Notes: generated from the letters alone by a model not told the origin. A stretch of DNA of 64,000 nucleotides from Escherichia coli (GCF_003019035.1 NZ_CP027447.1); one strand, 5' to 3'. Shown: positions 3,101 through 41,280, numbered from the stretch's first letter. Translations and numbers: made by a program.

Positions 3101-4453
3101 GTGTTTATTGGTTTTGATTACGGTACAGCAAACTGTTCAGTGGCGGTCATGCGTGACGGTAAACCGCATTTGCTAAAAATGGAAAACGACAGCACGCTGC
3201 TGCCTTCAATGCTTTGCGCGCCAACGCGTGAAGCGGTAAGCGAATGGCTGTACCGCCATCATGATGTTCCGGCAGACGACAATGAAACGCAGGCGCTGTT
3301 ACGTCGGGCGATTCGTTATAACCGCGAAGAAGATATCGATGTCACGGCGAAAAGCGTGCAGTTCGGTCTTTCTTCACTGGCACAATACATTGATGATCCG
3401 GAAGAAGTGTGGTTTGTGAAATCACCAAAATCGTTCCTCGGTGCCAGCGGCTTAAAACCGCAGCAGGTAGCGCTGTTTGAGGATCTGGTCTGCGCAATGA
3501 TGCTGCACATTCGCCAACAGGCGCAGGCGCAGCTGCCGGATGCGATTACTCAGGCGGTGATTGGTCGTCCGATCAACTTCCAGGGGCTGGGTGGCGATGA
3601 AGCAAACACCCAGGCGCAAGGGATTCTGGAACGCGCGGCAAAGCGTGCCGGGTTTAAGGACGTGGTATTCCAGTACGAGCCGGTCGCGGCTGGGCTGGAT
3701 TACGAAGCCACCTTGCAGGAAGAAAAACGGGTGCTGGTGGTGGATATCGGCGGTGGTACGACTGACTGCTCATTGCTGCTGATGGGGCCGCAGTGGCGTT
3801 CGCGTCTCGATCGTGAAGCCAGCCTGCTGGGTCATAGTGGTTGCCGTATTGGTGGTAACGATCTGGATATCGCGCTGGCGTTTAAAAACCTGATGCCGTT
3901 ACTGGGCATGGGGGGCGAAACCGAAAAAGGCATCGCCCTGCCGATTCTGCCGTGGTGGAATGCGGTTGCCATCAACGACGTACCTGCGCAAAGTGATTTC
4001 TACAGTAGTGCCAACGGTCGTCTGCTTAACGATCTGGTACGCGATGCCCGCGAACCGGAAAAAGTGGCCCTGTTACAGAAAGTCTGGCGTCAGCGTTTAA
4101 GCTATCGCCTGGTACGTAGCGCAGAAGAGAGCAAAATTGCGCTTTCAAGCGTAGCAGAAACCCGCGCCTCACTGCCGTTTATCAGCGATGAACTGGCTAC
4201 GCTGATTAGCCAGCAAGGGCTGGAAAGCGCCCTCAACCAGCCACTGGCGCGGATTCTGGAACAGGTGCAACTGGCGCTGGATAACGCCCAGGAAAAACCG
4301 GATGTCATCTATCTGACTGGTGGTAGCGCCCGATCGCCGCTGATTAAAAAAGCGCTGGCAGAACAGTTGCCGGGCATTCCGATTGCAGGCGGCGATGACT
4401 TTGGCTCCGTCACCGCCGGGCTGGCACGCTGGGCGGAAGTGGTGTTTCGTTAA
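3101..4453 (+). CDS. yegD: Hsp70/actin-like ATPase family protein YegD
   Basis: GTG start at 3101 gives MFIGFDYGTANCSVAV, a DnaK-like N-terminal phosphate-1 motif (IGFDYGT), and a 450-aa product. The ORF track has an in-frame upstream extension. Confidence 0.88.
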   Translation: MFIGFDYGTANCSVAVMRDGKPHLLKMENDSTLLPSMLCAPTREAVSEWLYRHHDVPADDNETQALLRRAIRYNREEDIDVTAKSVQFGLSSLAQYIDDPEEVWFVKSPKSFLGASGLKPQQVALFEDLVCAMMLHIRQQAQAQLPDAITQAVIGRPINFQGLGGDEANTQAQGILERAAKRAGFKDVVFQYEPVAAGLDYEATLQEEKRVLVVDIGGGTTDCSLLLMGPQWRSRLDREASLLGHSGCRIGGNDLDIALAFKNLMPLLGMGGETEKGIALPILPWWNAVAINDVPAQSDFYSSANGRLLNDLVRDAREPEKVALLQKVWRQRLSYRLVRSAEESKIALSSVAETRASLPFISDELATLISQQGLESALNQPLARILEQVQLALDNAQEKPDVIYLTGGSARSPLIKKALAEQLPGIPIAGGDDFGSVTAGLARWAEVVFR

Positions 4454-4465
4454 TTGAAAAATGGC

Positions 4466-8737: not shown

Positions 8738-8886
8738 TGAGGGTTAGGGAGAGGTTTCCCCCTCCCCCTGGTGTTCTTAGTAAGCCTGGAAGCTAATCAC
8801 TAAGAGTATCACCAGTATGATGACGTGCTTCATCATAACCCTTTCCTTATTAAAAGCCCTCTTCTCCGGGAGAGGGTTTCCCGTTT
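8738..8886 (+). ncRNA. sibA: Sib antitoxin sRNA, unit 1 (SibA-like); ends approximate
   Basis: Sigma70-like promoter TTGACA(8703-8708)-N17-TAATTT(8726-8731); the transcript is fully antisense to ibs unit 1; hairpin at about 8856-8877 followed by TTTCCCGTTT. Confidence 0.65.
8777..8836 (-). CDS. ibsA: Ibs type I toxin, 19 aa (MMKHVIILVILLVISFQAY)
   Basis: Hand translation of the minus strand; it is a hydrophobic peptide that matches my memory of IbsA. Confidence 0.8.
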   Translation of the reverse strand: MMKHVIILVILLVISFQAY

Positions 8887-9072
8887 CAGCGTCCCGCTGA
8901 AATCGTCGGCTTACCTCCTTTCGCCCTGAATGCAGTCTATCGCTAACGCGTGAACAAAATAGTTTCCTCTGTGATTATTCCGTAACGACTCGCAAAGAAT
9001 ATTTGCTGGCAGGATCGCAGACTACAAAGCCTGCGGATTGACAATCTTATCGTGAAGGCATAATTTCAGGAG

Positions 9073-9216
9073 TGAGGGTAGAGCGGGGTTTCCCCCGCCC
9101 TGGTAGTCTTAGTAAGCGGGGAAGCTTATGACTAAGAGCACCACGATGATGAGTATCTTCATCATGACCCTTTCCTTATTTATGGCCCCTTCCTCGGGAG
9201 GGGCTTTCCCGTTTCA
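9073..9216 (+). ncRNA. sibB: Sib antitoxin sRNA, unit 2 (SibB-like); ends approximate
   Basis: Promoter TTGACA-N17-TAATTT(9061-9066), antisense to ibs unit 2, GC hairpin at about 9184-9204 plus T-rich tail. Confidence 0.65.
9109..9165 (-). CDS. ibsB: Ibs type I toxin, 18 aa (MMKILIIVVLLVISFPAY)
   Basis: Hand translation of the minus strand; IbsB-like. Confidence 0.75.
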   Translation of the reverse strand: MMKILIIVVLLVISFPAY

Positions 9217-9400
9217 GCGTCCCGCTGAAATCGTCGGCTTACCTCCTTCTGTCCTGTATGCAGTCTATCGCTGACTTGCGGATAAAATAGTTTCCAATGT
9301 GATTATTGCGTAACGTCTCGCAAAGAATATTTGCTGGCAGGATCGCAGACTGCAAAGCCTGCAGATTGACAATATTATCGTGAAGGCATACTTTCAGGAG

Positions 9401-9543
9401 TGAGGGTAGAGCGGGGTTTCCCCCGCCCTGGTAGTCTTAGTAAGCCGGGAAGCTTATGACTAAGAGCACCACGATGATGATCCACTTCATCATGACCCTT
9501 TCCTTATTTAAGGCCCCTTCCTCGGGAGGGGCTTTCCCGTTTC
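9401..9543 (+). ncRNA. Sib antitoxin sRNA, unit 3 (additional copy); ends approximate
   Basis: Promoter TTGACA-N17-TACTTT(9389-9394), antisense to ibs unit 3, GC hairpin at about 9512-9532 plus T-rich tail. Confidence 0.6.
9437..9493 (-). CDS. Ibs type I toxin, 18 aa (MMKWIIIVVLLVISFPAY), third copy
   Basis: Hand translation of the minus strand; IbsB-like variant with W at position 4. Confidence 0.7.
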   Translation of the reverse strand: MMKWIIIVVLLVISFPAY

Positions 9544-14000: not shown

Positions 14001-14141
14001 CCGTTAGGTATCGGCATGGTCGGCGGTCTGATTGTCAGCCAGGTGCTGACGCTGTTTACCACGCCGGTGATTTATCTGCTATTCGACCGCCTGGCATTGT
14101 GGACCAAAAAACGCTTTGCTCGTCATGAAGAGGAGGCGTAA
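11019..14141 (+). CDS. mdtB: RND multidrug efflux transporter MdtB
   Basis: 1040-aa ORF with AcrB-like 12-TM architecture; part of a contiguous operon. Confidence 0.93.
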
Positions 14142-17100
14142 GTGAAGTTTTTTGCCCTCTTCATTTACCGCCCGGTGGCGACGATTTTACTGTCGGTCGC
14201 CATTACCCTGTGCGGCATACTGGGTTTCCGTATGCTGCCAGTCGCCCCGCTGCCACAGGTCGATTTTCCGGTGATCATGGTCAGCGCCTCGCTGCCCGGT
14301 GCGTCACCAGAAACAATGGCGTCTTCCGTTGCCACGCCGCTGGAGCGCTCACTTGGGCGCATTGCCGGAGTCAGCGAAATGACCTCCAGCAGTTCGCTCG
14401 GCAGCACGCGCATTATTTTGCAGTTTGATTTTGACCGGGATATCAACGGCGCAGCGCGCGATGTGCAGGCGGCGATCAACGCCGCGCAAAGTCTGCTACC
14501 CAGCGGGATGCCCAGCCGTCCGACCTATCGCAAAGCGAACCCGTCGGATGCGCCAATTATGATCCTGACGCTAACCTCCGATACTTATTCGCAAGGTGAA
14601 CTGTACGATTTCGCCTCAACACAGCTGGCTCCGACGATTTCGCAAATCGACGGTGTCGGTGATGTCGATGTTGGCGGCAGCTCGCTGCCCGCCGTACGCG
14701 TCGGGCTGAATCCGCAGGCGCTGTTTAATCAGGGCGTCTCGCTGGACGACGTACGCACTGCCATCAGCAATGCCAACGTGCGTAAACCGCAGGGCGCGCT
14801 GGAAGATGGCACTCACCGCTGGCAGATCCAGACCAACGATGAACTGAAAACAGCCGCTGAATATCAGCCGTTGATTATTCATTACAACAACGGCGGCGCG
14901 GTTCGTCTGGGCGATGTGGCGACGGTGACCGACTCAGTACAGGATGTGCGCAACGCCGGGATGACCAACGCCAAACCGGCTATTTTGCTGATGATCCGCA
15001 AGCTGCCGGAAGCCAATATTATCCAGACGGTTGACAGCATCCGCGCCCGTCTGCCGGAATTACAATCCACCATCCCGGCAGCAATTGATCTGCAAATTGC
15101 CCAGGATCGCTCCCCTACTATCCGCGCGTCGCTGGAAGAGGTTGAGCAGACGCTGATTATCTCGGTGGCGCTGGTGATTCTGGTGGTGTTTTTATTCCTG
15201 CGCTCGGGTCGCGCCACTATTATTCCCGCCGTTGCGGTGCCGGTTTCGCTGATTGGTACGTTTGCGGCGATGTACCTGTGCGGATTCAGTCTCAATAACC
15301 TTTCGTTAATGGCACTCACCATCGCTACTGGTTTCGTGGTGGATGACGCCATCGTGGTGCTGGAAAACATTGCCCGTCACCTGGAAGCGGGGATGAAACC
15401 ACTACAGGCCGCACTGCAAGGTACTCGCGAAGTCGGTTTTACGGTGCTGTCGATGAGTCTGTCACTGGTGGCGGTGTTCCTGCCGCTGCTGTTGATGGGC
15501 GGATTGCCGGGTCGCCTGTTACGCGAGTTTGCCGTGACGCTTTCTGTCGCCATTGGTATTTCGTTGCTGGTTTCCCTGACGTTAACGCCGATGATGTGCG
15601 GCTGGATGCTGAAAGCCAGCAAGCCGCGCGAGCAAAAGCGACTGCGTGGTTTTGGTCGCATGTTGGTAGCCCTGCAACAAGGCTATGGCAAGTCGCTGAA
15701 ATGGGTGCTCAATCATACCCGTCTGGTGGGCGTGGTGCTGCTTGGCACCATTGCGCTGAATATCTGGCTGTATATCTCGATCCCGAAAACCTTCTTCCCG
15801 GAGCAGGACACCGGCGTGTTGATGGGCGGGATACAGGCGGATCAGAGTATTTCGTTTCAGGCGATGCGCAGTAAGTTGCAGGATTTTATGAAAATTATCC
15901 GTGACGATCCGGCGGTGGATAATGTCACCGGCTTTACCGGCGGTTCGCGGGTGAACAGTGGGATGATGTTTATCACCCTCAAGCCACGCGACGAACGCAG
16001 CGAAACGGCGCAGCAAATTATCGACCGTCTGCGCGTAAAACTGGCGAAAGAACCGGGGGCGAATCTGTTCCTGATGGCGGTACAGGATATTCGCGTTGGC
16101 GGACGTCAGGCTAACGCCAGCTACCAGTACACATTATTGTCCGACGATCTGGCGGCACTGCGCGAATGGGAGCCGAAAATCCGCAAAAAACTGGCGACGT
16201 TGCCGGAACTGGCGGACGTGAACTCCGATCAGCAGGATAACGGCGCGGAAATGAATCTGGTTTACGACCGCGACACCATGGCACGGCTGGGAATCGACGT
16301 GCAGGCCGCCAACAGCCTGTTAAATAACGCCTTCGGTCAGCGGCAAATCTCGACCATTTACCAGCCGATGAACCAGTATAAAGTGGTGATGGAAGTGGAT
16401 CCGCGCTATACCCAGGACATCAGTGCGCTGGAAAAAATGTTCGTTATCAATAACGAAGGAAAAGCGATCCCGCTGTCGTATTTCGCTAAATGGCAACCGG
16501 CGAATGCCCCACTATCGGTGAATCATCAGGGATTATCGGCGGCCTCGACCATCTCGTTCAACCTGCCGACCGGGAAATCGCTCTCGGACGCCAGTGCGGC
16601 GATCGATCGCGCAATGACCCAGCTTGGTGTGCCTTCGACGGTGCGCGGTAGTTTTGCCGGCACGGCGCAGGTGTTCCAGGAGACGATGAACTCGCAGGTG
16701 ATCCTGATTATCGCCGCCATCGCCACGGTGTATATCGTGCTGGGTATCCTTTACGAGAGTTACGTACATCCGCTGACGATTCTCTCCACCCTGCCCTCGG
16801 CGGGCGTTGGAGCGCTGTTGGCGCTGGAGCTGTTCAATGCCCCGTTCAGCCTAATCGCCCTGATAGGGATCATGCTATTAATCGGCATCGTGAAGAAAAA
16901 CGCCATTATGATGGTCGATTTTGCGCTCGAAGCCCAACGGCACGGTAACCTGACGCCGCAGGAAGCTATTTTCCAGGCCTGTCTGCTGCGTTTTCGCCCG
17001 ATTATGATGACTACCCTGGCGGCGCTGTTTGGCGCGCTGCCGCTGGTGTTGTCGGGCGGTGACGGCTCGGAGCTGCGGCAACCCCTGGGGATCACCATTG

Positions 17101-17219
17101 TCGGCGGTCTGGTAATGAGCCAGCTTCTGACGCTGTATACCACGCCGGTGGTGTATCTCTTTTTCGACCGTCTGCGGCTGCGTTTTTCGCGTAAACCTAA
17201 ACAAACGGTAACCGAGTAA
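14142..17219 (+). CDS. mdtC: RND multidrug efflux transporter MdtC
   Basis: 1025-aa ORF with GTG start directly after the mdtB stop; paralogous to MdtB. Confidence 0.93.
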
Positions 17220-21266: not shown

Positions 21267-21519
21267 TTACGATGCCGGGCGTGGGTTGTTGGCGTCCGGC
21301 TTTATATCAAAACAACTCTTAGTTATTGATAATTAAGATTAACCTCCGCCATTAAAATAGTGGGCACTGACGAGCACTCGTTGTGCTTTCTTTGTTTACC
21401 ATCCCATACTTATCTTCCTGAACATGTTCATATGCCAAAATATCTTCTAATACTTTCGTGACGCTATCCGGTTTATGAAATACACTGATGTAAGATTTTT
21501 ACTTACAGGCGGGTGTAAA

Positions 21520-21771
21520 ATGGCCAGAACGATGACGGTTGATCTCGGCGATGAGTTGCGTGAATTTATCGAGTCCTTAATTGAATCCGGCGACTATCGC
21601 ACCCAAAGCGAAGTGATCCGTGAGTCGCTGCGCTTACTTCGAGAAAAGCAAGCAGAGTCTCGCCTGCAAGCGTTACGTGACATGCTCGCTGAAGGGTTGA
21701 GTAGTGGTGAAGCTCAGCCGTGGGAAAAGGACGCGTTTTTACGGAAGGTGAAAGCAGGGATAAGGAAATAA
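21520..21771 (+). CDS. ParD-family (RHH) type II antitoxin
   Basis: 83 aa from the ATG at 21520 (MARTMTVDLGDELREFIESLIESGDYRTQSEVIRESLRLL), a typical ParD N-terminus. An alternative start exists at 21475. Stop lies 1 nt before the partner gene start. Confidence 0.75.
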   Translation: MARTMTVDLGDELREFIESLIESGDYRTQSEVIRESLRLLREKQAESRLQALRDMLAEGLSSGEAQPWEKDAFLRKVKAGIRK

Positions 21772-21772
21772 T

Positions 21773-22069
21773 GTGCGTACTATAAAACTCATGCCAAAAG
21801 CCAATGAGGATTTAGAAGGCATCTGGTATTACAGCTATCACCATTTCGGCGAACCACAAGCCGACAGATATGTGGAACATCTTTCAGACGTTCTCCAGAT
21901 TCTGAGTAACAATAATATAGGTACGCCCAGACCTGAATTAGGCGAAGGTATTTTTGTTCTTCCTTTTGAACGCCACGTAATTTATTTCCTGCAATCACCA
22001 GAGGAAATTATCGTCATTCGTATCCTTAACCAAAACCAGTACGCCTCCAGACATTTACACTGGAGCTAA
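21773..22069 (+). CDS. ParE/RelE-fold type II toxin
   Basis: 98 aa from the GTG at 21773 (alternative ATG at 21791). The N-terminus (KANEDLEGIWYYSYHHFGEPQADRY) and C-terminus (HVIYFLQSPEEIIVIRILNQNQ) follow the ParE pattern. Confidence 0.75.
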   Translation: MRTIKLMPKANEDLEGIWYYSYHHFGEPQADRYVEHLSDVLQILSNNNIGTPRPELGEGIFVLPFERHVIYFLQSPEEIIVIRILNQNQYASRHLHWS

Positions 22070-32050: not shown

Positions 32051-33103
32051 TCAGGCAATAGTAATTTTGCTATCGAGATAAACGTCCTGCACGGCGTTAA
32101 TCAGTTTCACGCCGTCAGCCATCGATTTCTTGAACGCCTTACGTCCAAGAATCAGCCCCATTCCGCCAGCGCGTTTGTTGATAACCGCAGTACGCACTGC
32201 ATCGCTGAGGTCAGTTTCACCGCCCGCAGCACCGCCGGAGTTTATCAACCCAGCCCGGCCCATATAGCAGTTAGCTAACTGATAACGCACCAGATCAATC
32301 GGGTTTTCGCTGGTCAATTTGCTGTAGACGCGATCGTCGGTATAACCGTAATTAATCGCTTTATAGCCGCCGTTATTTTCCGCCATTTTTTGTTTAACGA
32401 TATCTGCACCTATGGTCGCCGCCAGATGGTTTGCCTGACCGGTCAGGTCGGCGGAAACATGGTAATCAACGCCATCTTTCTTAAAGGCGGAGTTACGCAA
32501 ATAGGCCCACAGCACTGTCACCATGCCCAGCTCGTGCGCACGTTCAAAAGCCGCAGAAATTTCTTCAATCTGGCGACGTGACTCTTCCGAGCCAAAATAG
32601 ATAGTCGCCCCAACCGCCACCGCGCCCATATTGAACGCCTGCTCCACGCTGGCATACAGCGTTTGATCGTAGGTATTCGGGTAACTTAGCGTCTCGTTGT
32701 GATTAAGTTTGACGAGGAATGGAATGCGATGCGCGTAACGCCGCGATACCGATGCCAGCACGCCGTAAGTTGACGCCACGCAGTTACAGCCCGCTTCGAT
32801 CGCCAGTTCAACAATGTTTTTCGGGTCAAAGTAGAGCGGGTTAGCGGCAAATGAAGCTCCGGCAGAGTGCTCAACGCCCTGGTCAACCGGCAGAATAGAA
32901 AGATATCCTGTGCCAGCCAGACGCCCGGTGTTGTACAACGTCTGCATATTACGTAACACCGCTGGCGGGCGATTATTGTCAATCATCACGCGGTCTACGT
33001 AGTCATGTCCGGGGAGATAAAGCTGGTCAGAAGGAATAGTCATACAACGGTGCTGTAAAAGGTTGTCGGCGTCTTTGCCAAGCAACTGCGCAATATCTGT
33101 CAT
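32051..33103 (-). CDS. fbaB: Class I fructose-bisphosphate aldolase
   Basis: 350 aa from [18 protein letters not shown]. The ORF track extends 24 codons upstream. Confidence 0.9.
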
Positions 33104-33359
33104 TACTATGCTCCCGTAAATTCCGATTGGATATCGGCTATGGATTGTCCTGGCCCGCCTTTTGCGGGCAATCATAATCCTGGTCGTTACGGGCGAGTTT
33201 TTCCATCTTTTGGATGTTTTTTCAGCGTTTTCTGTTGGCTCGATTCATCAGAAAAAATGTTACAGCGGTCAAGCTTTCACCGCAAAGGTATTTAAAAGGT
33301 ATTATTAAGTGGTATTGTCATCGCGTACCTTACATTACCTGTCATGAAGGAATTAAAAG

Positions 33360-34637
33360 ATGAAAACAACAGCAAAGCTGTCGTTCATGATGTTTGTTGA
33401 ATGGTTTATCTGGGGCGCGTGGTTTGTGCCATTGTGGTTGTGGTTAAGTAAAAGCGGTTTTAGTGCCGGAGAAATTGGCTGGTCGTATGCCTGTACCGCC
33501 ATTGCGGCGATCCTGTCGCCGATTCTGGTTGGCTCCATCACTGACCGCTTTTTCTCGGCACAGAAAGTGCTGGCGGTATTGATGTTCGCTGGTGCGGTGC
33601 TGATGTATTTCGCTGCGCAACAGACCACTTTTGCCGGCTTCTTCCCGTTACTGCTGGCCTACTCGCTAACCTATATGCCGACCATTGCGCTGACTAACAG
33701 TATCGCTTTTGCCAACGTGCCGGATGTGGAGCGTGATTTCCCGCGCATTCGTGTGATGGGCACTATCGGCTGGATTGCCTCTGGTCTGGCATGTGGATTC
33801 TTGCCGCAAATGCTGGGTTATGCCGATATCTCACCGACGAACATCCCGCTGCTGATTACCGCCGGAAGTTCTGCTCTGCTTGGTGTGTTTGCGTTTTTCC
33901 TGCCCGACACGCCACCAAAAAGCACCGGCAAAATGGATATTAAAGTCATGCTCGGCCTGGATGCGCTGATCCTGCTGCGCGATAAGAACTTCCTCGTCTT
34001 TTTCTTCTGTTCATTCCTGTTTGCGATGCCACTGGCGTTCTATTACATCTTTGCCAACGGTTATCTGACCGAAGTTGGCATGAAAAACGCCACTGGCTGG
34101 ATGACGCTCGGCCAGTTCTCTGAAATCTTCTTTATGCTGGCATTACCGTTTTTTACCAAACGCTTTGGTATCAAAAAGGTATTATTACTTGGTCTGGTCA
34201 CCGCTGCGATCCGCTATGGCTTCTTTATTTACGGTAGTGCGGATGAATATTTCACCTACGCGTTACTGTTCCTCGGCATTTTGCTGCACGGCGTAAGTTA
34301 CGATTTTTACTACGTTACCGCTTACATCTATGTCGATAAAAAAGCCCCCGTGCATATGCGTACCGCTGCGCAGGGGCTGATCACGCTCTGCTGCCAGGGC
34401 TTCGGCAGTTTGCTCGGCTATCGTCTTGGCGGTGTGATGATGGAAAAGATGTTCGCTTATCAGGAACCGGTAAACGGACTGACTTTCAACTGGGCCGGGA
34501 TGTGGACTTTCGGCGCGGTGATGATTGCCATTATCGCCGTGCTGTTCATGATTTTTTTCCGCGAATCCGACAACGAAATTACGGCTATCAAGGTCGATGA
34601 TCGCGATATTGCGTTGACACAAGGGGAAGTTAAATGA
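33360..34637 (+). CDS. yegT: MFS nucleoside transporter family protein YegT
   Basis: 425-aa 12-TM ORF. Confidence 0.88.
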   Translation: MKTTAKLSFMMFVEWFIWGAWFVPLWLWLSKSGFSAGEIGWSYACTAIAAILSPILVGSITDRFFSAQKVLAVLMFAGAVLMYFAAQQTTFAGFFPLLLAYSLTYMPTIALTNSIAFANVPDVERDFPRIRVMGTIGWIASGLACGFLPQMLGYADISPTNIPLLITAGSSALLGVFAFFLPDTPPKSTGKMDIKVMLGLDALILLRDKNFLVFFFCSFLFAMPLAFYYIFANGYLTEVGMKNATGWMTLGQFSEIFFMLALPFFTKRFGIKKVLLLGLVTAAIRYGFFIYGSADEYFTYALLFLGILLHGVSYDFYYVTAYIYVDKKAPVHMRTAAQGLITLCCQGFGSLLGYRLGGVMMEKMFAYQEPVNGLTFNWAGMWTFGAVMIAIIAVLFMIFFRESDNEITAIKVDDRDIALTQGEVK

Positions 34638-35638
34638 AAACAGAACGTATTCTCGGTGCTCTTTATGGGCAGGCGTTAGGGGATGCGATGGGGATGCCCT
34701 CCGAGCTTTGGCCGCGCAGTCGCGTCAAAGCACACTTTGGCTGGATTGACCGTTTTCTGCCTGGGCCAAAGGAGAATAACGCAGCCTGTTATTTTAACCG
34801 CGCCGAATTCACCGACGATACCTCGATGGCGCTGTGTCTGGCGGATGCGTTACTGGAACGTGAAGGCAAGATCGATCCGGATCTGATTGGGCGTAATATT
34901 CTCGACTGGGCGCTGCGTTTCGACGCCTTTAACAAAAACGTACTAGGTCCGACCTCGAAGATTGCGCTTAACGCCATTCGCGACGGTAAACCCGTTGCTG
35001 AACTGGAAAATAACGGCGTGACCAACGGCGCAGCGATGCGCGTCTCGCCATTAGGTTGTTTGCTTCCGGCGCGCGATATTGACTCTTTTATTGATGATGT
35101 GGCGCTGGCCTCCAGCCCGACACATAAATCCGATCTGGCGGTTGCGGGGGCGGTAGTCATCGCATGGGCGATTTCTCGTGCCATTGACGGAGAAAGCTGG
35201 TCAGCGATTGTTGATTCACTGCCTTCAATTGCGCGACATGCTCAACAAAAACGCATCACTACCTTCAGCGCCTCACTGGCAGCACGTCTGGAGATTGCGC
35301 TGAAAATTGTGCGCAATGCCGATGGCACCGAATCCGCCAGCGAACAGCTTTACCAGGTCGTTGGCGCAGGTACCAGCACTATTGAGTCCGTTCCGTGCGC
35401 CATTGCGCTGGTTGAACTGGCACAAACCGACCCGAACCGTTGCGCCGTCCTGTGCGCTAACCTTGGCGGCGACACAGACACCATCGGTGCTATGGCGACG
35501 GCAATTTGTGGCGCGTTGCATGGCGTTAACGCTATCGATCCTGCGTTAAAGGCGGAACTGGATGCAGTAAATCAGCTTGATTTCAACCGCTATGCCACGG
35601 CGCTGGCGAAATATCGTCAACAACGGGAGGCGGTATGA
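34634..35638 (+). CDS. yegU: ADP-ribosylglycohydrolase family protein YegU
   Basis: 334-aa ORF with 4-nt overlap to yegT; N-terminus ILGALYGQALGDAMGMP is typical of the family. Confidence 0.88.
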   Translation: MKTERILGALYGQALGDAMGMPSELWPRSRVKAHFGWIDRFLPGPKENNAACYFNRAEFTDDTSMALCLADALLEREGKIDPDLIGRNILDWALRFDAFNKNVLGPTSKIALNAIRDGKPVAELENNGVTNGAAMRVSPLGCLLPARDIDSFIDDVALASSPTHKSDLAVAGAVVIAWAISRAIDGESWSAIVDSLPSIARHAQQKRITTFSASLAARLEIALKIVRNADGTESASEQLYQVVGAGTSTIESVPCAIALVELAQTDPNRCAVLCANLGGDTDTIGAMATAICGALHGVNAIDPALKAELDAVNQLDFNRYATALAKYRQQREAV

Positions 35639-36600
35639 GCGGCGCGCGATTACACACGCTGCTGCCTGAATTAACCACGCGTCAGTCGGTGATGGTCGTC
35701 GGCGCGGCGGTCATTGACGTGATCGCCGACGCTTATGCCCTCCCCTGGCGTGGGTGCGATATCGAACTGAAACAGCAGAGCGTTAACGTTGGCGGCTGCG
35801 CACTGAATATTGCCGTGGCGTTAAAGCGCCTCGGCATCGAAGCGGGTAATGCCTTGCCGCTCGGTCAGGGCGTGTGGGCGGAGATTATTCGCAACCGGAT
35901 GGCAAAAGAGGGCTTAATCAGCCTGATCGATAACGCCGAAGGCGATAACGGCTGGTGTCTGGCGCTGGTTGAGCCGGATGGTGAACGCACGTTTATGTCG
36001 TTCAGCGGTGTGGAAAATCAATGGAATCGCCAATGGTTGGCGCGATTAACCGTTGCACCTGGCAGCCTGCTCTATTTTTCCGGTTATCAACTGGCCTCGC
36101 CCTGCGGCGAATTGTTAGTGGAATGGCTGGAAAAGCTGCAAGACGTGACGCCGTTTATCGATTTTGGCCCACGTATTGGCGATATCCCGGATGCATTACT
36201 GGCGCGGATCATGGCCTGTCGACCTTTAGTATCACTCAATCGTCAGGAGGCTGAGATTGCCGCCGAACGTTTTGCTTTATCCGCAGAGATAACAACACTT
36301 GGCAAGCAATGGCAGGAGAAATTTGCCGCGCCGTTGATCATTCGTCTCGATAAAGAGGGCGCATGGTATTTCAGCAACGACGCTTCTGGCTGCATTCCGG
36401 CATTTCCAACGCAAGTTGTAGACACCATTGGGGCGGGCGACAGTCATGCCGGCGGCGTACTTGCCGGGCTGGCCTCTGGTCTGCCACTGGCGGATGCCGT
36501 ATTACTGGGCAATGCAGTGGCGTCGTGGGTTGTCGGGCATCGGGGCGGTGATTGTGCGCCAACGCGCGAGGAACTACTCCTCGCACACAAAAACGTATAG
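35635..36600 (+). CDS. yegV: PfkB-family sugar/nucleoside kinase YegV
   Basis: 321-aa ORF with 4-nt overlap to yegU; C-terminal DTIGAGDSHAGG motif. Confidence 0.88.
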   Translation: MSGARLHTLLPELTTRQSVMVVGAAVIDVIADAYALPWRGCDIELKQQSVNVGGCALNIAVALKRLGIEAGNALPLGQGVWAEIIRNRMAKEGLISLIDNAEGDNGWCLALVEPDGERTFMSFSGVENQWNRQWLARLTVAPGSLLYFSGYQLASPCGELLVEWLEKLQDVTPFIDFGPRIGDIPDALLARIMACRPLVSLNRQEAEIAAERFALSAEITTLGKQWQEKFAAPLIIRLDKEGAWYFSNDASGCIPAFPTQVVDTIGAGDSHAGGVLAGLASGLPLADAVLLGNAVASWVVGHRGGDCAPTREELLLAHKNV

Positions 36601-37320
36601 ATCGCTGCGACAGTGGCTGATGCTGTACTCAATAGGCCGTTGCTGTTGGTCAAGCGCCACTTGCTTGATCACCAGCACCGGTATTTTGCTATCTAACTGA
36701 ATATGTGACTGAAACTCGGCATCCGGCATCCGGGCGCTAACGCGGGAACGCGTACGTTGTGGGTAAATGTGCTGGCTGCGGAAGTAGTCATAAAGAGAAA
36801 TCCCGATGGCATCAACATCATGAATTAAATGTGCCGGAACCCACGATTCCTCAATCGATACCGCTTCTTCATCGACATAGCGAATACGCTTAAGCAAAAA
36901 GACATCACTTCCCGCTTCGACCGCCAGCTGCTGCGCAACTTCTTCGGGACATTTCACGACACGCTTGTTAACCCATAGCGTATCGGGCTTTTTCCCGCGC
37001 AATACCACCTGCTGAGAAAAACCTCGCGCTTCTTTCAACGAGTATTCGAAGATGTTGTTGATCTGCGTACCGTAACCACGCGAACGCGTCACCACGCCCT
37101 CTTCTTCCAGCGCCTGCATCGCCTTGCGCACCGTAATGCGCGAAACGCCGGTTAACTGACTTAAATCACGCTCACCGGGCAAAATATTGCCATGCTCCAG
37201 CACCCCGCTGCGCACGGCATTTTTTACCGTTTCGGCAAACTTAATATAAAGCGGCGTGTTATCCGCCGCTAAAATACGTTCGTTCAGTTGGGCAATCAGC
37301 TGGGTATGCGCTTGTTCCAT
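36574..37320 (-). CDS. yegW: GntR-family transcriptional regulator YegW
   Basis: 248-aa ORF with an N-terminal wHTH (LSQLTGVSRITVRKAMQALEEEGVV); its 3' end overlaps the yegV 3' end by 27 nt. Confidence 0.88.
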   Translation of the reverse strand: MEQAHTQLIAQLNERILAADNTPLYIKFAETVKNAVRSGVLEHGNILPGERDLSQLTGVSRITVRKAMQALEEEGVVTRSRGYGTQINNIFEYSLKEARGFSQQVVLRGKKPDTLWVNKRVVKCPEEVAQQLAVEAGSDVFLLKRIRYVDEEAVSIEESWVPAHLIHDVDAIGISLYDYFRSQHIYPQRTRSRVSARMPDAEFQSHIQLDSKIPVLVIKQVALDQQQRPIEYSISHCRSDLYVFVCEE

Positions 37321-37371
37321 TTGTCTTTTTCCTGCCGGGGAGTCTGGTGGGAGTATATCACTGCTTCTTAT

Positions 37372-38199
37372 TTAAGGCGTTTCTTTAATCCCATCAACGA
37401 ATCCCTGCAACTCCTCCTCTGTGCCATTAAACACATTAAAATCCACCGGACCATTAATGCCATCTACCTGCCCACGGTCGGAATGCTGCCAGAAGCGCCA
37501 GGCCATGCCGTCATTGTCCGGACGACGTTGATAGTAGTGAGCCACCCACCACGGATATTCATTGAAATAGCCCGCCAGATTCGTGTGATAAAAAACGGCT
37601 CCTGAGTAAATAATCGGCTTTTTCCCCGTACTTTTTTCGACCATTTTTAGCCACTGACTTACCCGCTTGCGTAATTCTTTTGCCGATAATTTTCCCCGTT
37701 CTTCTACGTCCAGCACGGCAGGGAAATCGCCTTGTGAGAAATCCACCGTTTGCAGAAATAATCTCGCCTGAACTGAAGCGGATACCGACGGGGAAAAATA
37801 ATGATACGCCCCGCGCAGCAGGCCATTTTCGCGGCTTAGTTGCCAGTTACGCGAAAAATAGGGGTCCACCAGCTTTTCGCCTTCCGTCGCCTTAATAAAA
37901 GCAAACTGTAAGCGGATACCGTTGTCGCGCATTTTTGCCACCCGCTGCCAGTCGATCCGCTCCTGCCAGCGCGAAACATCTATTCCGTGAATGGTGTAAC
38001 TGGCAGGAATGCGAATAGCAAAAGATTTGACTGGACGATAACCGTAGAAGTGGATGTAGTCTTTAATCTGAATTGCTGTCGAGTAGAAAAAATTCACCGT
38101 CTGACGCGGATAAATTGCAACGATGGAAATTAGCCCAAGAGCGCATAATAAAGCGGTGAATTTTTTTCGACTGGTGATTCTCAGCTGCATTGGTTTCAT
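37372..38199 (-). CDS. yegX: GH25 lysozyme-family protein YegX
   Basis: 275-aa ORF with an N-terminal hydrophobic segment; an alternative start 3 codons downstream (MQLRITS) is possible. Confidence 0.82.
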   Translation of the reverse strand: MKPMQLRITSRKKFTALLCALGLISIVAIYPRQTVNFFYSTAIQIKDYIHFYGYRPVKSFAIRIPASYTIHGIDVSRWQERIDWQRVAKMRDNGIRLQFAFIKATEGEKLVDPYFSRNWQLSRENGLLRGAYHYFSPSVSASVQARLFLQTVDFSQGDFPAVLDVEERGKLSAKELRKRVSQWLKMVEKSTGKKPIIYSGAVFYHTNLAGYFNEYPWWVAHYYQRRPDNDGMAWRFWQHSDRGQVDGINGPVDFNVFNGTEEELQGFVDGIKETP

Positions 38200-38254
38200 C
38201 CCTGAATGTCAGCGCCAAAGACTGACAATAACCAAAGCAGCTATAGTAAGGTGC

Positions 38255-39055
38255 TCACCACCACGCGTGGAAGTGGTGAACCGGACCAATACCGTGACCA
38301 ACTTCCAGCGTGTCGGCCTGGGCTAACGCCGATGAAAGCCAGCTTTTTGCCTCCTGTACGGTGTCAGCCCAGTTTGTATGGCGCGGGCGTAGTGCAGCCA
38401 ACGCCGCAGAGAGCGTACAACCAGTGCCGTGGGTGTTTTTGGTCATAATGCGCGGTGCAGTAAATCGTTGTTCCCCCTCACGAGTAAACAGCCAGTCCGG
38501 GCTTTGCTCATCATCCAGATGACCACCTTTCATTAGCACTGCGCCACAGCCCATCGCCAACAGCGATCGCCCTTGTTCCAGCATTTCCTGTTCGGTGCGC
38601 GCGTGTGGCGCGTCGAGCAAGGCGGCTGCTTCGGGCAAGTTTGGCGTTATTAATGAAACATGTGGCAATAATCGACTGCGTAGCGTGGCAACTGCCGAAG
38701 GTGAAAGCAGCGGGTCGCCGCTTTTTGCCAGCATAACGGTGTCGAGTACCACGTTTTGGATCTGATAACGTTGCAACCGTTCTGCCACCGCTTCAACAAT
38801 ATCGGTTTCCGCCAGCATACCGATTTTAGTGGTATCGATTCGCACATCGCTGAACACCGAATCGAGCTGGGCGGCGACAAAATCAGGCTCAATGCGATAC
38901 ACCAACTGTACGCCACGGGTATTTTGCGCCACCAGTGCAGTAATCACTGAGCAACCATAAGCGCCAAGTGCCGAGAAGGTTTTAAGATCGGCCTGAATCC
39001 CCGCACCACCACTCGGATCAGTACCGGCAATCGTCAGAGCGTTAATTCGTTTCAT
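38255..39055 (-). CDS. thiD: Hydroxymethylpyrimidine / phosphomethylpyrimidine kinase
   Basis: 266 aa starting [25 protein letters not shown]; overlaps thiM by 4 nt. Confidence 0.92.
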
Positions 39056-39840
39056 GCCTGCACCTCCTGCGTCAATTGCCAGAGCGCATCAAGGAAATGT
39101 GGAACAAAACTGCCTGGCCCCTCGCTTCTGGCGACTGCGCGTTCTCCAGCTTGTTTCATCCAGTGACAGGCAAATGCGATATTTTCCAGCGTATCGCCTG
39201 GTAGCGCACAACAGGCAGCGACAACCGCCGATAGTGCACAGCCAGTTCCTACCACTTTGGTCATTAACGGATCGCCACCGTGAATGCCAATGATACGATG
39301 TCCATCGGTAACATAATCCACCTCGCCAGTGACCACGACAATTGCGCCAGTTTCCCGTGCCAGTGTTTGTGCAGCAGGTATCGCGTTAGCTGCGGCATCA
39401 GTGGTATCCACTCCCCGTCCACCATTAGCAACGCCAGCTAATGCCATGATTTCCGAAGCATTACCACGTATGGCGGTTGGCTTATGGGACAGAAGTTCCA
39501 CACAAAAACGGCGGCGATAATCGAGCGCACCAACCGCAACCGGATCAAGCGTCCAGGGCATTTGTGATCGTGTTGCTTGCTCAACGGCAGCACTCATCGC
39601 TTGCGCTCGTGGCTGCGTCAGCGTGCCAACGTTAATCAACAAGGCACTGGCGATAGCCGCAAACTGACTGGCCTCTTCGGTTTCGATAACCATTGCTGGC
39701 GATGCACCGAGCGCCAGCAAGGTATTGGCAGTAAAGGTTTGCACCACATCGTTGGTCATACAGTGCACAAGAGGGGAATGTTGGTGAAAAAGGTGTAACG
39801 CGTGCGCAGATTGCGCTGAACTCAGCAGGTCGACTTGCAT
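39052..39840 (-). CDS. thiM: Hydroxyethylthiazole kinase
   Basis: 262-aa ORF immediately downstream of a thi-box leader. Confidence 0.92.
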
Positions 39841-39980
39841 AGTTTGCTCCTGCCATAACGTGAAGAAGCAATGACCTGGTGGTCCGTGACTTCCCTACGC
39901 TGGCATTATCCAGATCAGGTGATACGGGTATTTCTCAGCCTTTACGCAGAAGGGCACCCCGAGTCGTTTGGTTGCGATAA
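39841..39980 (-). ncRNA. TPP (thi-box) riboswitch in thiM leader
   Basis: Minus strand contains GGGGTGCCCTTCTGCGTAAAGGCTGAGAAATACCCGTATCACCTGATCTGGATAATGCCAGCGTAGGGAA, the conserved TPP aptamer with its CUGAGA motif. Confidence 0.9.
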
Positions 39981-40062
39981 TAAATCGCAGAGGAGGATGG
40001 TAATGTCCAGCGCACGCGTTGTAAACGGGGAAAAACGGCGGTATTACAATAACGTTGTGAAA

Positions 40063-40335
40063 TTATTTGATATAAGAATCCAGCACCTTCAGAACGACAT
40101 CCAGATCTTCTTCACGTTTTAGCTCATCCCCCTGGTGAACGATGTGTTCCGTCAGATGGCCTTTAATCACTTCCCGCATCAGACCGTTTACCGCGCCACG
40201 GATAGCAGCAATCTGTTGTAAAACTGCAGCGCATTCATGCGGTTCGTCGAGCATTTTCTTGAGCGCCACGACCTGGCCCTGAATCTTACTGGCACGCGCT
40301 TTCAGTTTCTGTTTATCACGGATGGTATGAGACAT
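40063..40335 (-). CDS. rcnR: Ni/Co-responsive repressor RcnR (CsoR/RcnR family)
   Basis: 90-aa ORF divergent from rcnA. Confidence 0.9.
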
Positions 40336-40383
40336 GGCAACACCTGGTTAACAAGAATATGAAAAATCATAGCACTATTAATC

Positions 40384-40418
40384 TACTGGGGGGTAGTATC
40401 AGGTACTGGGGGGGAGTA
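40384..40418. promoter_or_regulatory. RcnR operator: tandem TACT-G6/7-AGTA sites
   Basis: TACTGGGGGGTAGTA and TACTGGGGGGGAGTA seen directly in the rcnR-rcnA divergent spacer. Confidence 0.8.
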
Positions 40419-40455
40419 GAATCAGATTGCCGAATTAATACTAAGAATTATTATC

Positions 40456-41280
40456 ATGACCGAATTTACAACACTTCTTCAGCAAGGAAACGCCTGGTTC
40501 TTCATCCCCAGCGCCATCTTACTTGGTGCGCTTCATGGCCTGGAACCGGGGCACTCAAAAACGATGATGGCGGCGTTTATCATCGCCATCAAAGGCACCA
40601 TTAAACAGGCGGTGATGCTCGGACTGGCAGCAACCATTTCGCATACCGCAGTGGTCTGGTTAATTGCCTTTGGCGGGATGGTGATCAGCAAACGCTTTAC
40701 TGCTCAATCAGCAGAACCGTGGCTCCAGTTGATTTCCGCAGTGATCATTATTAGCACCGCGTTCTGGATGTTCTGGCGTACCTGGCGCGGCGAACGCAAC
40801 TGGCTGGAGAATATGCACGAGCATGATCATGAGCATCATCACCACGATCACGAAGATCACCACGACCATGGACATCATCACCATCACGAACATGGCGAGT
40901 ATCAGGATGCCCATGCACGAGCCCATGCCAATGACATTAAACGACGCTTTGATGGTAGAGAGGTCACCAACTGGCAAATTTTGCTATTTGGCTTAACCGG
41001 TGGCCTTATCCCCTGCCCGGCAGCAATTACCGTGCTGTTGATTTGCATTCAGTTGAAAGCCCTGACACTGGGCGCAACACTGGTCGTCAGTTTCAGCCTC
41101 GGCCTGGCGTTAACGCTTGTCACCGTAGGCGTTGGCGCAGCAATCAGCGTTCAGCAGGTCGCAAAACGCTGGAGCGGATTTAACACTCTCGCTAAACGCG
41201 CTCCCTATTTTTCCAGTCTGTTGATTGGCTTAGTTGGTGTGTATATGGGCGTACATGGCTTCATGGGCATAATGCGATAA
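40456..41280 (+). CDS. rcnA: Nickel/cobalt efflux protein RcnA
   Basis: 274-aa membrane protein with a His-rich loop (HEHDHEHHHHDHEDHHDHGHHHHHEH). Confidence 0.92.
   Translation: MTEFTTLLQQGNAWFFIPSAILLGALHGLEPGHSKTMMAAFIIAIKGTIKQAVMLGLAATISHTAVVWLIAFGGMVISKRFTAQSAEPWLQLISAVIIISTAFWMFWRTWRGERNWLENMHEHDHEHHHHDHEDHHDHGHHHHHEHGEYQDAHARAHANDIKRRFDGREVTNWQILLFGLTGGLIPCPAAITVLLICIQLKALTLGATLVVSFSLGLALTLVTVGVGAAISVQQVAKRWSGFNTLAKRAPYFSSLLIGLVGVYMGVHGFMGIMR

What the first reader, a model, noticed from the sequence alone, without database searches (positions are those of the whole stretch)
36574..36600. Convergent yegV and yegW coding regions overlap by 27 nt at their 3' ends
Seen in the sequence: the yegV stop (36598-36600) lies inside the last 9 codons of minus-strand yegW. 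Convergent overlap leaves no room for a terminator and implies antisense transcription across each gene's 3' end, which can couple expression of a GntR-type regulator and a neighbouring kinase operon.
Basis: seen in the sequence. Interest (0 to 1): 0.2.

Follow-up and report, generated by a model that had tools for sequence, protein, structure and literature searches.

The report
Conserved 27-nt yegV/yegW tail overlap
Two neighbouring E. coli genes on opposite strands, a sugar kinase gene (yegV) and the gene for the repressor of its operon (yegW/ggaR), really do share their last 27 bases, but this is an ordinary, already annotated feature held in place mainly because both proteins need their tails.

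Summary
yegV (35635-36600, +) and yegW/ggaR (36574-37320, -) overlap by 27 nt, which is 8 codons plus the stop of each gene, with codons aligned antisense. RefSeq annotates the same overlap in K-12 MG1655. The pair is listed in a published E. coli "excludon" catalogue, and it caused an oligo clash during TAG-to-TAA genome recoding.

Neither gene ends earlier:
- YegW's tail aligns with the terminal strand of solved HutC/UTRA repressors.
- YegV has a normal PfkB C-terminal length.

The junction is exactly 27 nt in 66 of 70 loci from about 14 enterobacterial genera. Nearly all substitutions in it are synonymous for yegW. yegW Leu241 is always CTA or TTA, the antisense of yegV's stop, although these codons make up 12.6% of other yegW Leu codons. 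Two lineages undid the overlap, one by tandem duplication and one by insertion. Distant relatives show a 35-nt gap or a 14-nt overlap.

No intrinsic terminator lies at the junction, and C-rich downstream RNA suggests Rho-dependent termination (inferred). Regulatory coupling is untested, and GgaR is reported to stay constant at about 10-30 molecules per cell. Verdict: real, well conserved, already known, low interest.

The parts
33360..34637 (+). yegT, a nucleoside:H+ symporter-family transporter and the first gene of the GgaR-repressed yegTUV operon
   Evidence: ORF; Pfam Nuc_H_symport, E 1e-183; annotation; operon and repression from PMC10819704
34634..35638 (+). yegU, an ADP-ribosylglycohydrolase-family protein; it overlaps yegT by 4 nt and yegV by 4 nt (same-strand ATGA-type overlaps)
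35635..36600 (+). yegV, a PfkB-family sugar/nucleoside kinase of 321 aa and the last gene of yegTUV; residues 314-321 (LLLAHKNV) plus the stop lie in the overlap
   Evidence: PfkB covers residues 17-309; ortholog alignment with conserved length and tail; solved ribokinases extend 7-10 residues past the aligned PTREE
36574..36600 (.). 27-nt dual-coding convergent overlap: the last 8 codons plus stop of yegV are the reverse complement of the last 8 codons plus stop of yegW; phase 123:321
   Evidence: exactly 27 nt in 66 of 70 loci; entropy by codon class; Leu241 is YTA in 61 of 61 loci and this is the lowest synonymous-variability window of yegW, P about 1e-4; the 63-nt junction is identical in 5266 of 5400 E. 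coli genomes
36574..37320 (-). yegW = ggaR, a HutC-type GntR repressor (HTH at residues 29-87, UTRA at 108-242) of yegTUV; residues 241-248 (LYVFVCEE) plus the stop lie in the overlap
   Evidence: the tail CRSDLYVFV aligns with YvoA/NagR YRGDRYTFV near the chain end; function from PMC10819704
36566..36584 (.). Perfect 7-bp inverted repeat GCGAGGA-ACTAC-TCCTCGC. The yegW stop codon sits in the loop, the left arm is the yegV R311-E312-E313 codons, and the right arm is the antisense of the yegW C-E-E codons. There is no U-tract on either strand. Probably a by-product of coding; function unproven.
   Evidence: Folds (-12.7 and -16.2 kcal/mol, z -5.4 and -4.6); at least 6 of 7 pairs in 52 of 65 (+) and 48 of 65 (-) loci, lost in Pectobacterium and Leminorella, and no compensatory changes are possible; not called as a terminator
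36595..36628 (+). Imperfect stem-loop predicted in + strand RNA, starting at the last yegV codon; no U-tract; weak evidence only
   Evidence: MFE and centroid structure (the 101-nt context has z -2.2)
36494..36573 (-). C-rich, G-poor untranslated RNA (33 C, 17 G in 80 nt) immediately downstream of the yegW stop, antisense to yegV; candidate Rho-loading region (inferred)
36801..37200 (+). C>G region (C/G 1.2-2.4) in + strand RNA about 200-600 nt downstream of the yegV stop, antisense to yegW; candidate Rho-loading region for yegTUV read-through (inferred)
33276..33305 (+). Sigma-70-like hexamer pair upstream of yegT; a consensus match only, and the region's count is not above chance
   Evidence: GgaR binding within 190 bp upstream of yegT is reported in PMC10819704

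Best explanation
The 27-nt segment is a genuine dual-coding, tail-to-tail overlap between two real genes. One is yegV, the last gene of the yegTUV operon. The other is yegW/ggaR, the HutC-type repressor of that operon.

It persists because both protein C-termini are needed and the codon-aligned antisense phase locks the sequence.
- yegW's terminal beta-strand dominates the constraint.
- yegV's tail can change only at yegW's synonymous third positions.
- Each gene's stop codon is held as the antisense of a CTA/TTA leucine codon in the other gene.

Only rare structural mutations (duplication or insertion) can separate the genes, so the geometry is effectively frozen across the sampled Enterobacterales. 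The convergent regulator arrangement itself is older than the overlap.

Because no terminator can sit between the genes, each transcript must run into the other gene. Termination is most likely Rho-dependent on the untranslated, C-rich antisense RNA (inferred). Any antisense or collision effect on expression is a side consequence. It is probably small in uninduced cells, because yegTUV is repressed and ggaR is very weakly expressed.
For: Shown here:
- ORFs and overlap, with identical annotation in RefSeq.
- The overlap is exactly 27 nt in 66 of 70 loci from Escherichia to Pectobacterium and Leminorella.
- Positional entropy in the overlap is 0.53 at yegV-pos1/yegW-pos3, 0.04 at pos2/pos2, and 0.11 at yegV-pos3/yegW-pos1. 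Outside the overlap, third positions score 1.40 (yegV) and 0.96 (yegW).
- yegW Leu241 is CTA or TTA in 61 of 61 loci, against 12.6% YTA elsewhere in yegW.
- The overlap is the least synonymous-variable 8-codon window in yegW (resampling P about 1e-4).
- GAG is retained at yegW E247 and E248, and TAC at Y242, so yegV residues L315, L316 and V321 are also constrained.
- No locus has a premature stop at the single-step-mutable yegV E312 or E313 codons.
- YegW's tail aligns with the terminal strand of YvoA/NagR.
- YegV's length is typical of solved ribokinases.
- One escape arose by a ~96-nt tandem duplication, after which Leu241 became CTG. Another arose by a 69-nt insert.
- Distant relatives have a 35-nt gap with a GC hairpin, or a 14-nt overlap in another phase.
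- There is no intrinsic terminator and no Rfam family at the junction.
- C>G composition lies downstream of both stops.

From the literature: GgaR represses yegTUV and is constant at about 20-30 molecules per cell.
Against: - The loci are phylogenetically related, so the counts are not independent events. The control is only the comparison with other sites in the same sequences.
- Reduced synonymous variation could partly reflect RNA-level selection, for example on the junction hairpin or on antisense pairing.
- Rho dependence is inferred from composition only. No 3'-end data exist for this locus in the sources searched.
- The pair is catalogued as an excludon, so a regulatory contribution cannot be excluded.
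Confidence: 0.78

Rival explanations
1. Excludon-type feedback switch. The overlap is maintained because convergent transcription couples the repressor to its target. When ADP-glucose inactivates GgaR, yegTUV transcription runs antisense into ggaR. RNA polymerase collision and RNase III cleavage of the duplex then lower GgaR synthesis and reinforce induction.
For: - There is no terminator between the genes.
- yegV-yegW is listed among the convergent excludons of MG1655 (PMC12288877).
- On the + strand, the C>G region begins only about 200 nt into antisense yegW, so read-through could cover much of ggaR.
- Convergence of regulator and operon is conserved in all 70 loci and in a 49%-identity relative.
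- Synthetic work shows that antisense transcription can tune gene expression in E. coli (PMC4731013, abstract listed).
Against: - GgaR protein is reported constant across growth and media.
- There is no locus-specific dsRNA or 3'-end evidence.
- The excludon criterion is nearly automatic for coding regions that already overlap.
- Two lineages resolved the overlap, and distant relatives have a 35-nt gap with a hairpin or a 14-nt overlap. The exact overlap is therefore not required.
- The substitution pattern is fully explained by protein constraint.
Confidence: 0.14
2. The junction hairpin (36566-36584) is a functional RNA element. It could be a 3'-end protective stem to which Rho-terminated yegW (or yegTUV) transcripts are trimmed, or a non-canonical bidirectional terminator.
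For: - It is a stable perfect 7-bp stem on both strands (z -5.4 and -4.6).
- At least 6 of 7 pairs are kept in about 75-80% of loci.
- GAG is preferred over GAA at yegV E312 (48 versus 6).
- The relatives that lack the overlap carry hairpins in the spacer.
Against: - No U-tract follows the stem on either strand, so it is not called as a terminator.
- The stem is lost in Pectobacterium and Leminorella although the overlap is kept.
- The right arm is frozen by dual coding, so there is no covariation, and the left arm is simply the R-E-E codons.
- No Rfam match.
Confidence: 0.07
3. Annotation artefact: one of the two genes really ends, or is mis-framed, before the overlap, so there is no true dual coding.
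For: Long overlaps in prokaryotic annotation are often mispredictions (the topic of PMC2478687, listed).
Against: - Stop codons are unambiguous.
- Both tails are conserved in length and sequence across genera.
- YegW's tail is part of the UTRA fold alignment.
- YegV's length matches solved homologues.
- The yegV stop is under visible selection.
Confidence: 0.01

Closest known systems
Convergent (tail-to-tail) overlapping gene pairs of prokaryotes, phase 123:321 (Lillo & Krakauer 2007, PMC2174442; Huvet & Stumpf 2014, PMC4161906)
   Same: Two annotated protein genes on opposite strands share their 3' ends. The codon-aligned antisense phase accounts for about a third of convergent overlaps of 5 nt or more. 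Origin by stop-codon movement is the standard model. E. coli has 58-75 such pairs.
   Different: Nothing differs in kind. This pair is notable only for how well conserved the exact length is (66 of 70 loci) and for involving a repressor and the last gene of its only known target operon.
Excludons: overlapping transcription of neighbouring opposite-strand genes (ExcludonFinder, PMC12288877; example mscL-arfA, PMC10070815)
   Same: Convergent genes whose transcripts must overlap. The pair is explicitly listed in the E. coli excludome.
   Different: Classical excludons overlap through long UTRs and show reciprocal expression. Here the overlap lies in the coding regions themselves. Reciprocal expression and RNase III processing have not been shown for this pair.
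Bidirectional intrinsic terminators between convergent genes (named from my own knowledge of E. coli full-length RNA profiling studies; not retrieved here)
   Same: A palindromic stem sits at the junction of two convergent genes.
   Different: The defining A-tract/stem/U-tract arrangement is absent. In + strand RNA the A-rich run follows the stem, and in - strand RNA the U-rich run precedes it. The scan finds no terminator.
HutC-subfamily GntR repressors encoded next to their catabolic target operon (YvoA/NagR, DasR, PhnF)
   Same: YegW has a GntR HTH plus a UTRA effector domain and aligns end to end with YvoA. It represses the adjacent operon and responds to a small-molecule effector (PMC10819704).
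   Different: The regulator is convergent with, and overlaps, the 3' end of its target operon rather than being divergent from it or the first gene in the operon.

Membership tests
Convergent overlapping protein-coding gene pair | Both ORFs are real, conserved protein-coding genes | tested here: met
   Pfam PfkB E 1e-56; GntR E 3e-16 and UTRA E 2e-36; orthologs at 63-97% (YegV) and 78-99% (YegW) identity in 70 loci
Convergent overlapping protein-coding gene pair | The 3' ends, including both stop codons, lie inside the partner's coding sequence on the opposite strand | tested here: met
   36574-36600, 27 nt; RefSeq annotation is identical
Convergent overlapping protein-coding gene pair | The overlapped codons are under purifying selection in both frames (true dual coding) | tested here: met
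   Entropy by codon class; Leu241 YTA in 61 of 61 loci, reduced yegW synonymous variation, and retained GAG and TAC codons; no truncating mutations of the yegV tail
Excludon | Transcripts of the two neighbouring genes overlap | not testable with these tools
   This is logically required over at least 27 nt if both proteins are made. The pair is listed in the MG1655 excludome (PMC12288877), but no per-locus data were available.
Excludon | Mutually exclusive or reciprocal expression of the two genes | not tested
   No data were found. GgaR is reported constant, but yegTUV induction was not followed in the same experiment.
Excludon | dsRNA formation and RNase III processing in the overlap | tested here: inconclusive
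   Neither gene appears in the held supplements of the p19 dsRNA-capture study. The method is reported to be insensitive for convergent and low-expression pairs.
Intrinsic (Rho-independent) or bidirectional terminator | A GC-rich stem-loop followed by a U-tract on the transcribed strand | tested here: not met
   The stem at 36566-36584 has no downstream U-tract on either strand. No terminator-like site lies within several hundred nt of the junction, and the only run of 5 or more T within 600 nt is 389 nt downstream on the + strand.
Rho-dependent termination region | Untranslated C-rich, G-poor RNA downstream of the stop codon | tested here: met
   - strand: 33 C and 17 G in the first 80 nt. 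+ strand: C/G of 1.2-2.4 from about 200 nt. This is a compositional test only. Rho dependence itself is not testable here.
HutC subfamily of GntR regulators (YegW) | An N-terminal GntR winged HTH plus a C-terminal UTRA domain that reaches the protein's end | tested here: met
   Pfam GntR at 29-87 and UTRA at 108-242 of 248; alignment to YvoA over residues 22-245
PfkB/ribokinase family (YegV) | A PfkB domain with the DTxGAGD motif and a family-typical C-terminal length | tested here: met
   Pfam PfkB at 17-309; VVDTIGAGDSHAGG is invariant; alignment to ribokinases through residues 313-316, with 7-10 more residues in the solved chains

The most novel reading that the evidence does not exclude
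The conserved convergent junction may act as a built-in positive-feedback (excludon-type) switch. Derepressed yegTUV transcription would read antisense through ggaR, a repressor present at only about 10-30 molecules per cell. That would lower its synthesis and make induction of the operon hysteretic or bistable. The 27-nt dual-coding overlap would then be kept partly because it prevents a terminator from evolving between the genes.
Probability: 0.12. Interest if true: 0.4.

Novelty: already known. Interest (0 to 1): 0.12.

Why it matters
As a discovery it matters little. The overlap is in the reference annotation, it belongs to a class with dozens of members in E. coli, and the pair is already in a published excludon list.

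It has practical consequences.
- Any edit of either gene's last 8 codons or stop changes the other gene. The TAG-to-TAA recoding oligos for yegV and yegW overwrote each other (PMC3458525).
- A standard yegW deletion that keeps fewer than 27 nt of its 3' end would alter YegV's C-terminus. That could confound phenotypes assigned to the loss of GgaR. This is an unverified lead.

The comparative data also give a clean teaching example of dual-coding constraint: one gene's tail evolves only at the other's synonymous sites, and the overlap can be escaped by tandem duplication.

Tried and rejected
- **Rfam scan of 33000-40500 at a permissive threshold.** Only the thiM TPP riboswitch matched, and nothing matched at the junction.
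- **Consensus terminator and promoter scans around the junction and both operons.** No terminator lies near the junction, no promoter-like site was found for yegW, and counts were at or below the shuffle expectation.
- **Locus-specific transcript-end or dsRNA evidence.** Neither gene is mentioned in the held supplements of E. coli Term-seq (PMC7815308), SMRT-Cappable-seq (PMC6131387) or p19 dsRNA capture (PMC7373196). The ExcludonFinder supplements are not held, and the dsRNA-transcriptome paper is not held.
- **Covariation test of the junction hairpin.** It is not informative, because the right arm is frozen by dual coding. Only pair-retention counts were possible.
- **Keio deletion design for overlapping genes.** The Keio paper is not held, and a text search gave nothing relevant. 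This is left as an unverified lead.
- **Annotation-artefact reading.** Rejected on the homologue and structure alignments.

Full report
**What is there.** The window is E. coli chromosome, and the yegV-yegW stretch (35600-37400) is 100% identical to strain SCU-301.
- yegT (33360-34637), yegU (34634-35638) and yegV (35635-36600) lie on the + strand with 4-nt same-strand overlaps.
- yegW (36574-37320) lies on the - strand.
- Pfam assigns them to a nucleoside:H+ symporter, an ADP-ribosylglycohydrolase-family protein, a PfkB kinase (residues 17-309 of 321), and a GntR HTH (29-87) plus UTRA (108-242 of 248) regulator.

The shared segment 36574-36600 is CTACTCCTCGCACACAAAAACGTATAG. It reads LLLAHKNV* for yegV and, in reverse complement, LYVFVCEE* for yegW. 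The frames are codon-aligned antisense, so each TAG stop is a CTA leucine codon in the partner gene.

**Already known.**
- RefSeq annotates the identical 27-nt overlap in K-12 MG1655: b2100 at 2181096-2182061 and b2101 at 2182035-2182781. PGAP does the same.
- The stretch spanning both genes is present in 5419 of 5426 complete E. coli genomes.
- The 63-nt junction is identical in 5266 of 5400 of them.
- yegW has been characterised as GgaR, a single-target repressor of yegTUV that responds to ADP-glucose. It is present at about 10-30 molecules per cell and is constant through growth. The 3.3-kb yegTUV mRNA is seen only in a ggaR deletion (PMC10819704).
- The pair yegV-yegW is listed among 165 convergent "excludons" of MG1655 (PMC12288877).
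- During TAG-to-TAA recoding, the yegV and yegW oligos overlapped and overwrote one another (PMC3458525).
- As a class, convergent overlaps number 58 to 75 in E. coli. The 123:321 phase makes up about a third of those of 5 nt or more.
- In this window, 1 of 7 convergent pairs overlaps. The other gaps are 12, 31, 64, 81, 81 and 328 nt.

**Do the genes really end where annotated?** Yes.
- YegV orthologs from Citrobacter, Klebsiella sp., Phytobacter, Superficieibacter and Salmonella are mostly 320-322 aa (range 318-328) and mostly end in LL(L)AHK[ND]V.
- Solved ribokinases align through residues 313-316 and continue for another 7-10 residues, so YegV's length is typical of the family.
- YegW aligns with YvoA/NagR over residues 22-245. 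CRSDLYVFV matches YRGDRYTFV near the end of that chain, so five of the eight overlapped yegW codons encode the terminal strand of the UTRA domain.

**Conservation.** A scan of one genome per species returned 71 loci. Of the 70 loci that carry both genes (including the two E. coli reference loci), 66 have an overlap of exactly 27 nt. They span Escherichia, Citrobacter, Enterobacter, Lelliottia, Leclercia, Trabulsiella, Mangrovibacter, Silvania, Superficieibacter, Pluralibacter, Huaxiibacter, Pectobacterium and Leminorella.

Across 64 distinct junctions, positional entropy behaves as follows:

| Position class | Entropy |
|---|---|
| yegV third positions outside the overlap | 1.40 |
| yegW third positions outside the overlap | 0.96 |
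| Overlap, yegV-pos1 / yegW-pos3 | 0.53 |
| Overlap, pos2 / pos2 | 0.04 |
| Overlap, yegV-pos3 / yegW-pos1 | 0.11 |

Nearly every substitution in the overlap is synonymous in yegW and changes the YegV tail. K/E pairs with TTT/TTC, N/D/H and H/D/N/Y pair with GTN, and TAG/TAA pair with CTA/TTA.

Several results show that yegV also constrains the segment:
- yegW Leu241 is CTA (49) or TTA (12) in 61 of 61 loci, although these two codons make up 12.6% of the other yegW leucine codons and never exceed 45% at any other conserved leucine.
- Tyr242 is TAC and Glu247/248 are GAG almost without exception.
- The overlap is the least synonymous-variable 8-codon window of the whole gene (0.46 versus a mean of 1.04; resampling P about 1e-4).
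- No locus carries a nonsense change at the yegV E312 or E313 codons, which are one mutation away from a stop and would remove the overlap without touching yegW.

So both tails are under purifying selection, with yegW dominant.

**Exceptions and deeper relatives.**
- In Citrobacter amalonaticus S646 (L009), about 96 nt of the yegW 3' end was tandemly duplicated. yegV now ends in the decaying relic copy, the genes are 56 nt apart, and Leu241 has become CTG.
- In C. sedlakii (L021), a 69-nt spacer with two stable hairpins separates the genes.
- In Yokenella (L031), a 1-nt deletion inside the overlap frameshifts both tails. This is either a pseudogene or a sequencing error.
- In Pectobacterium sp. 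PL152 (L067), the junction is intact but yegV is frameshifted upstream.
- A relative with about 60% identity (L076) overlaps its YegW-like gene by 14 nt in another phase.
- A 49%-identity relative (L077) has the same yegT-yegU-yegV layout facing a GntR/UTRA gene, but with a 35-nt gap that holds a perfect 8-bp GC hairpin.
- The 45%-identity relatives lack the convergent regulator.

The convergent arrangement is therefore older than the overlap. The junction geometry differs between deep lineages and is frozen within the sampled Enterobacterales. This is what stop-codon drift followed by dual-coding lock-in predicts. It argues against a need for the exact overlap.

**Transcription.**
- No intrinsic-terminator-like site lies near the junction, and no Rfam family matches there.
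- A perfect 7-bp inverted repeat (36566-36584) holds the yegW stop codon in its loop and folds stably on both strands. It has no U-tract.
- Its left arm is simply the yegV R-E-E codons, and it is lost in Pectobacterium and Leminorella. It cannot show covariation because the right arm is frozen. I regard it as probably incidental.
- Downstream of the yegW stop, the RNA is C-rich from the first nucleotide (33 C, 17 G in 80 nt).
- Downstream of the yegV stop, the RNA turns strongly C>G only after about 200 nt.

This suggests Rho-dependent termination, with yegTUV read-through able to cover part of antisense ggaR. That is an inference from composition only. Neither gene appears in the 3'-end, full-length-transcript or dsRNA datasets I could search. 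The excludon criterion (coverage boundaries that overlap) is almost automatically met by genes whose coding regions overlap (my inference).

**Verdict.** The regulatory part, coupling of repressor and operon, is an untested possibility. It faces some counter-evidence: GgaR levels are constant, the overlap has been lost naturally while both genes stayed intact, and deeper relatives show different geometry.

The best-supported explanation is a dual-coding overlap locked in by constraint on both protein C-termini. The feature is already annotated and catalogued and is one of dozens in E. coli. The comparative analysis here adds detail but no surprise, so interest is low.

Noticed in passing
L009:4940-5142 (Citrobacter amalonaticus S646): About 96 nt of the yegW 3' end is tandemly duplicated (about 85% identity, with an 11-nt deletion in the relic copy). 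This separates yegV and yegW by 56 nt. yegV lost its TAG (now CAG) and ends in the relic copy, and yegW Leu241 is CTG here. It is a natural example of an overlap resolved by duplication.
   Followed up: yes
L021:4964-5032 (Citrobacter sedlakii): A 69-nt spacer with two stable hairpins (+ strand z -3.5) replaces the overlap. The YegV tail there is LLVSLKR*. No canonical U-tract terminator was found in the spacer.
   Followed up: partly
L031:4940-4981 (Yokenella regensburgei ATCC 49455): A 1-nt deletion inside the overlap (GCACACAAAAAC becomes GCAACAAAAAC) frameshifts the tails of both genes at once. It is either a real double lesion or an assembly error.
   Followed up: no
L076:1197-1210 and L077:4970-5004 (metagenomic relatives): Distant yegV/yegW-like pairs have a 14-nt overlap in another phase (L076) or a 35-nt gap holding a perfect 8-bp GC hairpin, GGGCGCAC-AGTG-GTGCGCCC (L077). 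The junction geometry has therefore changed several times.
   Followed up: partly
L077, L078-L080, L082 (gene neighbourhoods of distant YegV relatives): The ADP-ribosylglycohydrolase-family plus PfkB gene pair is widely conserved. It sits next to nucleoside or purine-cytosine transporters and, in one case, a PNP_UDP_1 phosphorylase. This looks more like a nucleoside-type catabolic module than the ADP-glucose role proposed for yegTUV.
   Followed up: no
window 4453-4464 and 2072-2102: Two other convergent pairs in the window are almost touching: yegD (+) and yegI (-) with a 12-nt gap, and dgcE (+) and alkA (-) with a 31-nt gap. Both pairs also appear in the published E. coli excludon list.
   Followed up: partly
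window 34634-34637 and 35635-35638: yegT/yegU and yegU/yegV each overlap by 4 nt on the same strand, the ATGA stop/start type usually associated with translational coupling.
   Followed up: no
window 14141-17218: In the 100%-identical strain SCU-301, mdtC (an RND efflux permease) is annotated as a frameshifted pseudogene.
   Followed up: no
window 8776-9492: There are three tandem Ibs-family type I toxin genes (ibsA plus two more) between mdtA and yegL. I did not look at their Sib antisense RNAs.
   Followed up: no
window 21474-22068: A ParD/ParE-type type II toxin-antitoxin pair lies between yegP and yegQ.
   Followed up: no
window 39875-39971 (-): A TPP riboswitch lies upstream of thiM (Rfam RF00059, 72 bits, E 4e-13). 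It was the only Rfam match in 33000-40500.
   Followed up: yes
window 36574-36600 (practical lead): From my own knowledge, the standard Keio deletion design keeps only the last 6 codons plus the stop (21 nt) of the deleted gene. That is less than the 27-nt overlap, so the ggaR knockout JW2088 used in PMC10819704 might carry an altered yegV end. I could not verify the actual primer design.
   Followed up: partly
P0002 (413 aa): One database protein carries both ADP_ribosyl_GH and PfkB domains at 95% identity to YegV. It is probably a YegU-YegV fusion produced by a frameshift or a gene-calling artefact at the 4-nt overlap.
   Followed up: no
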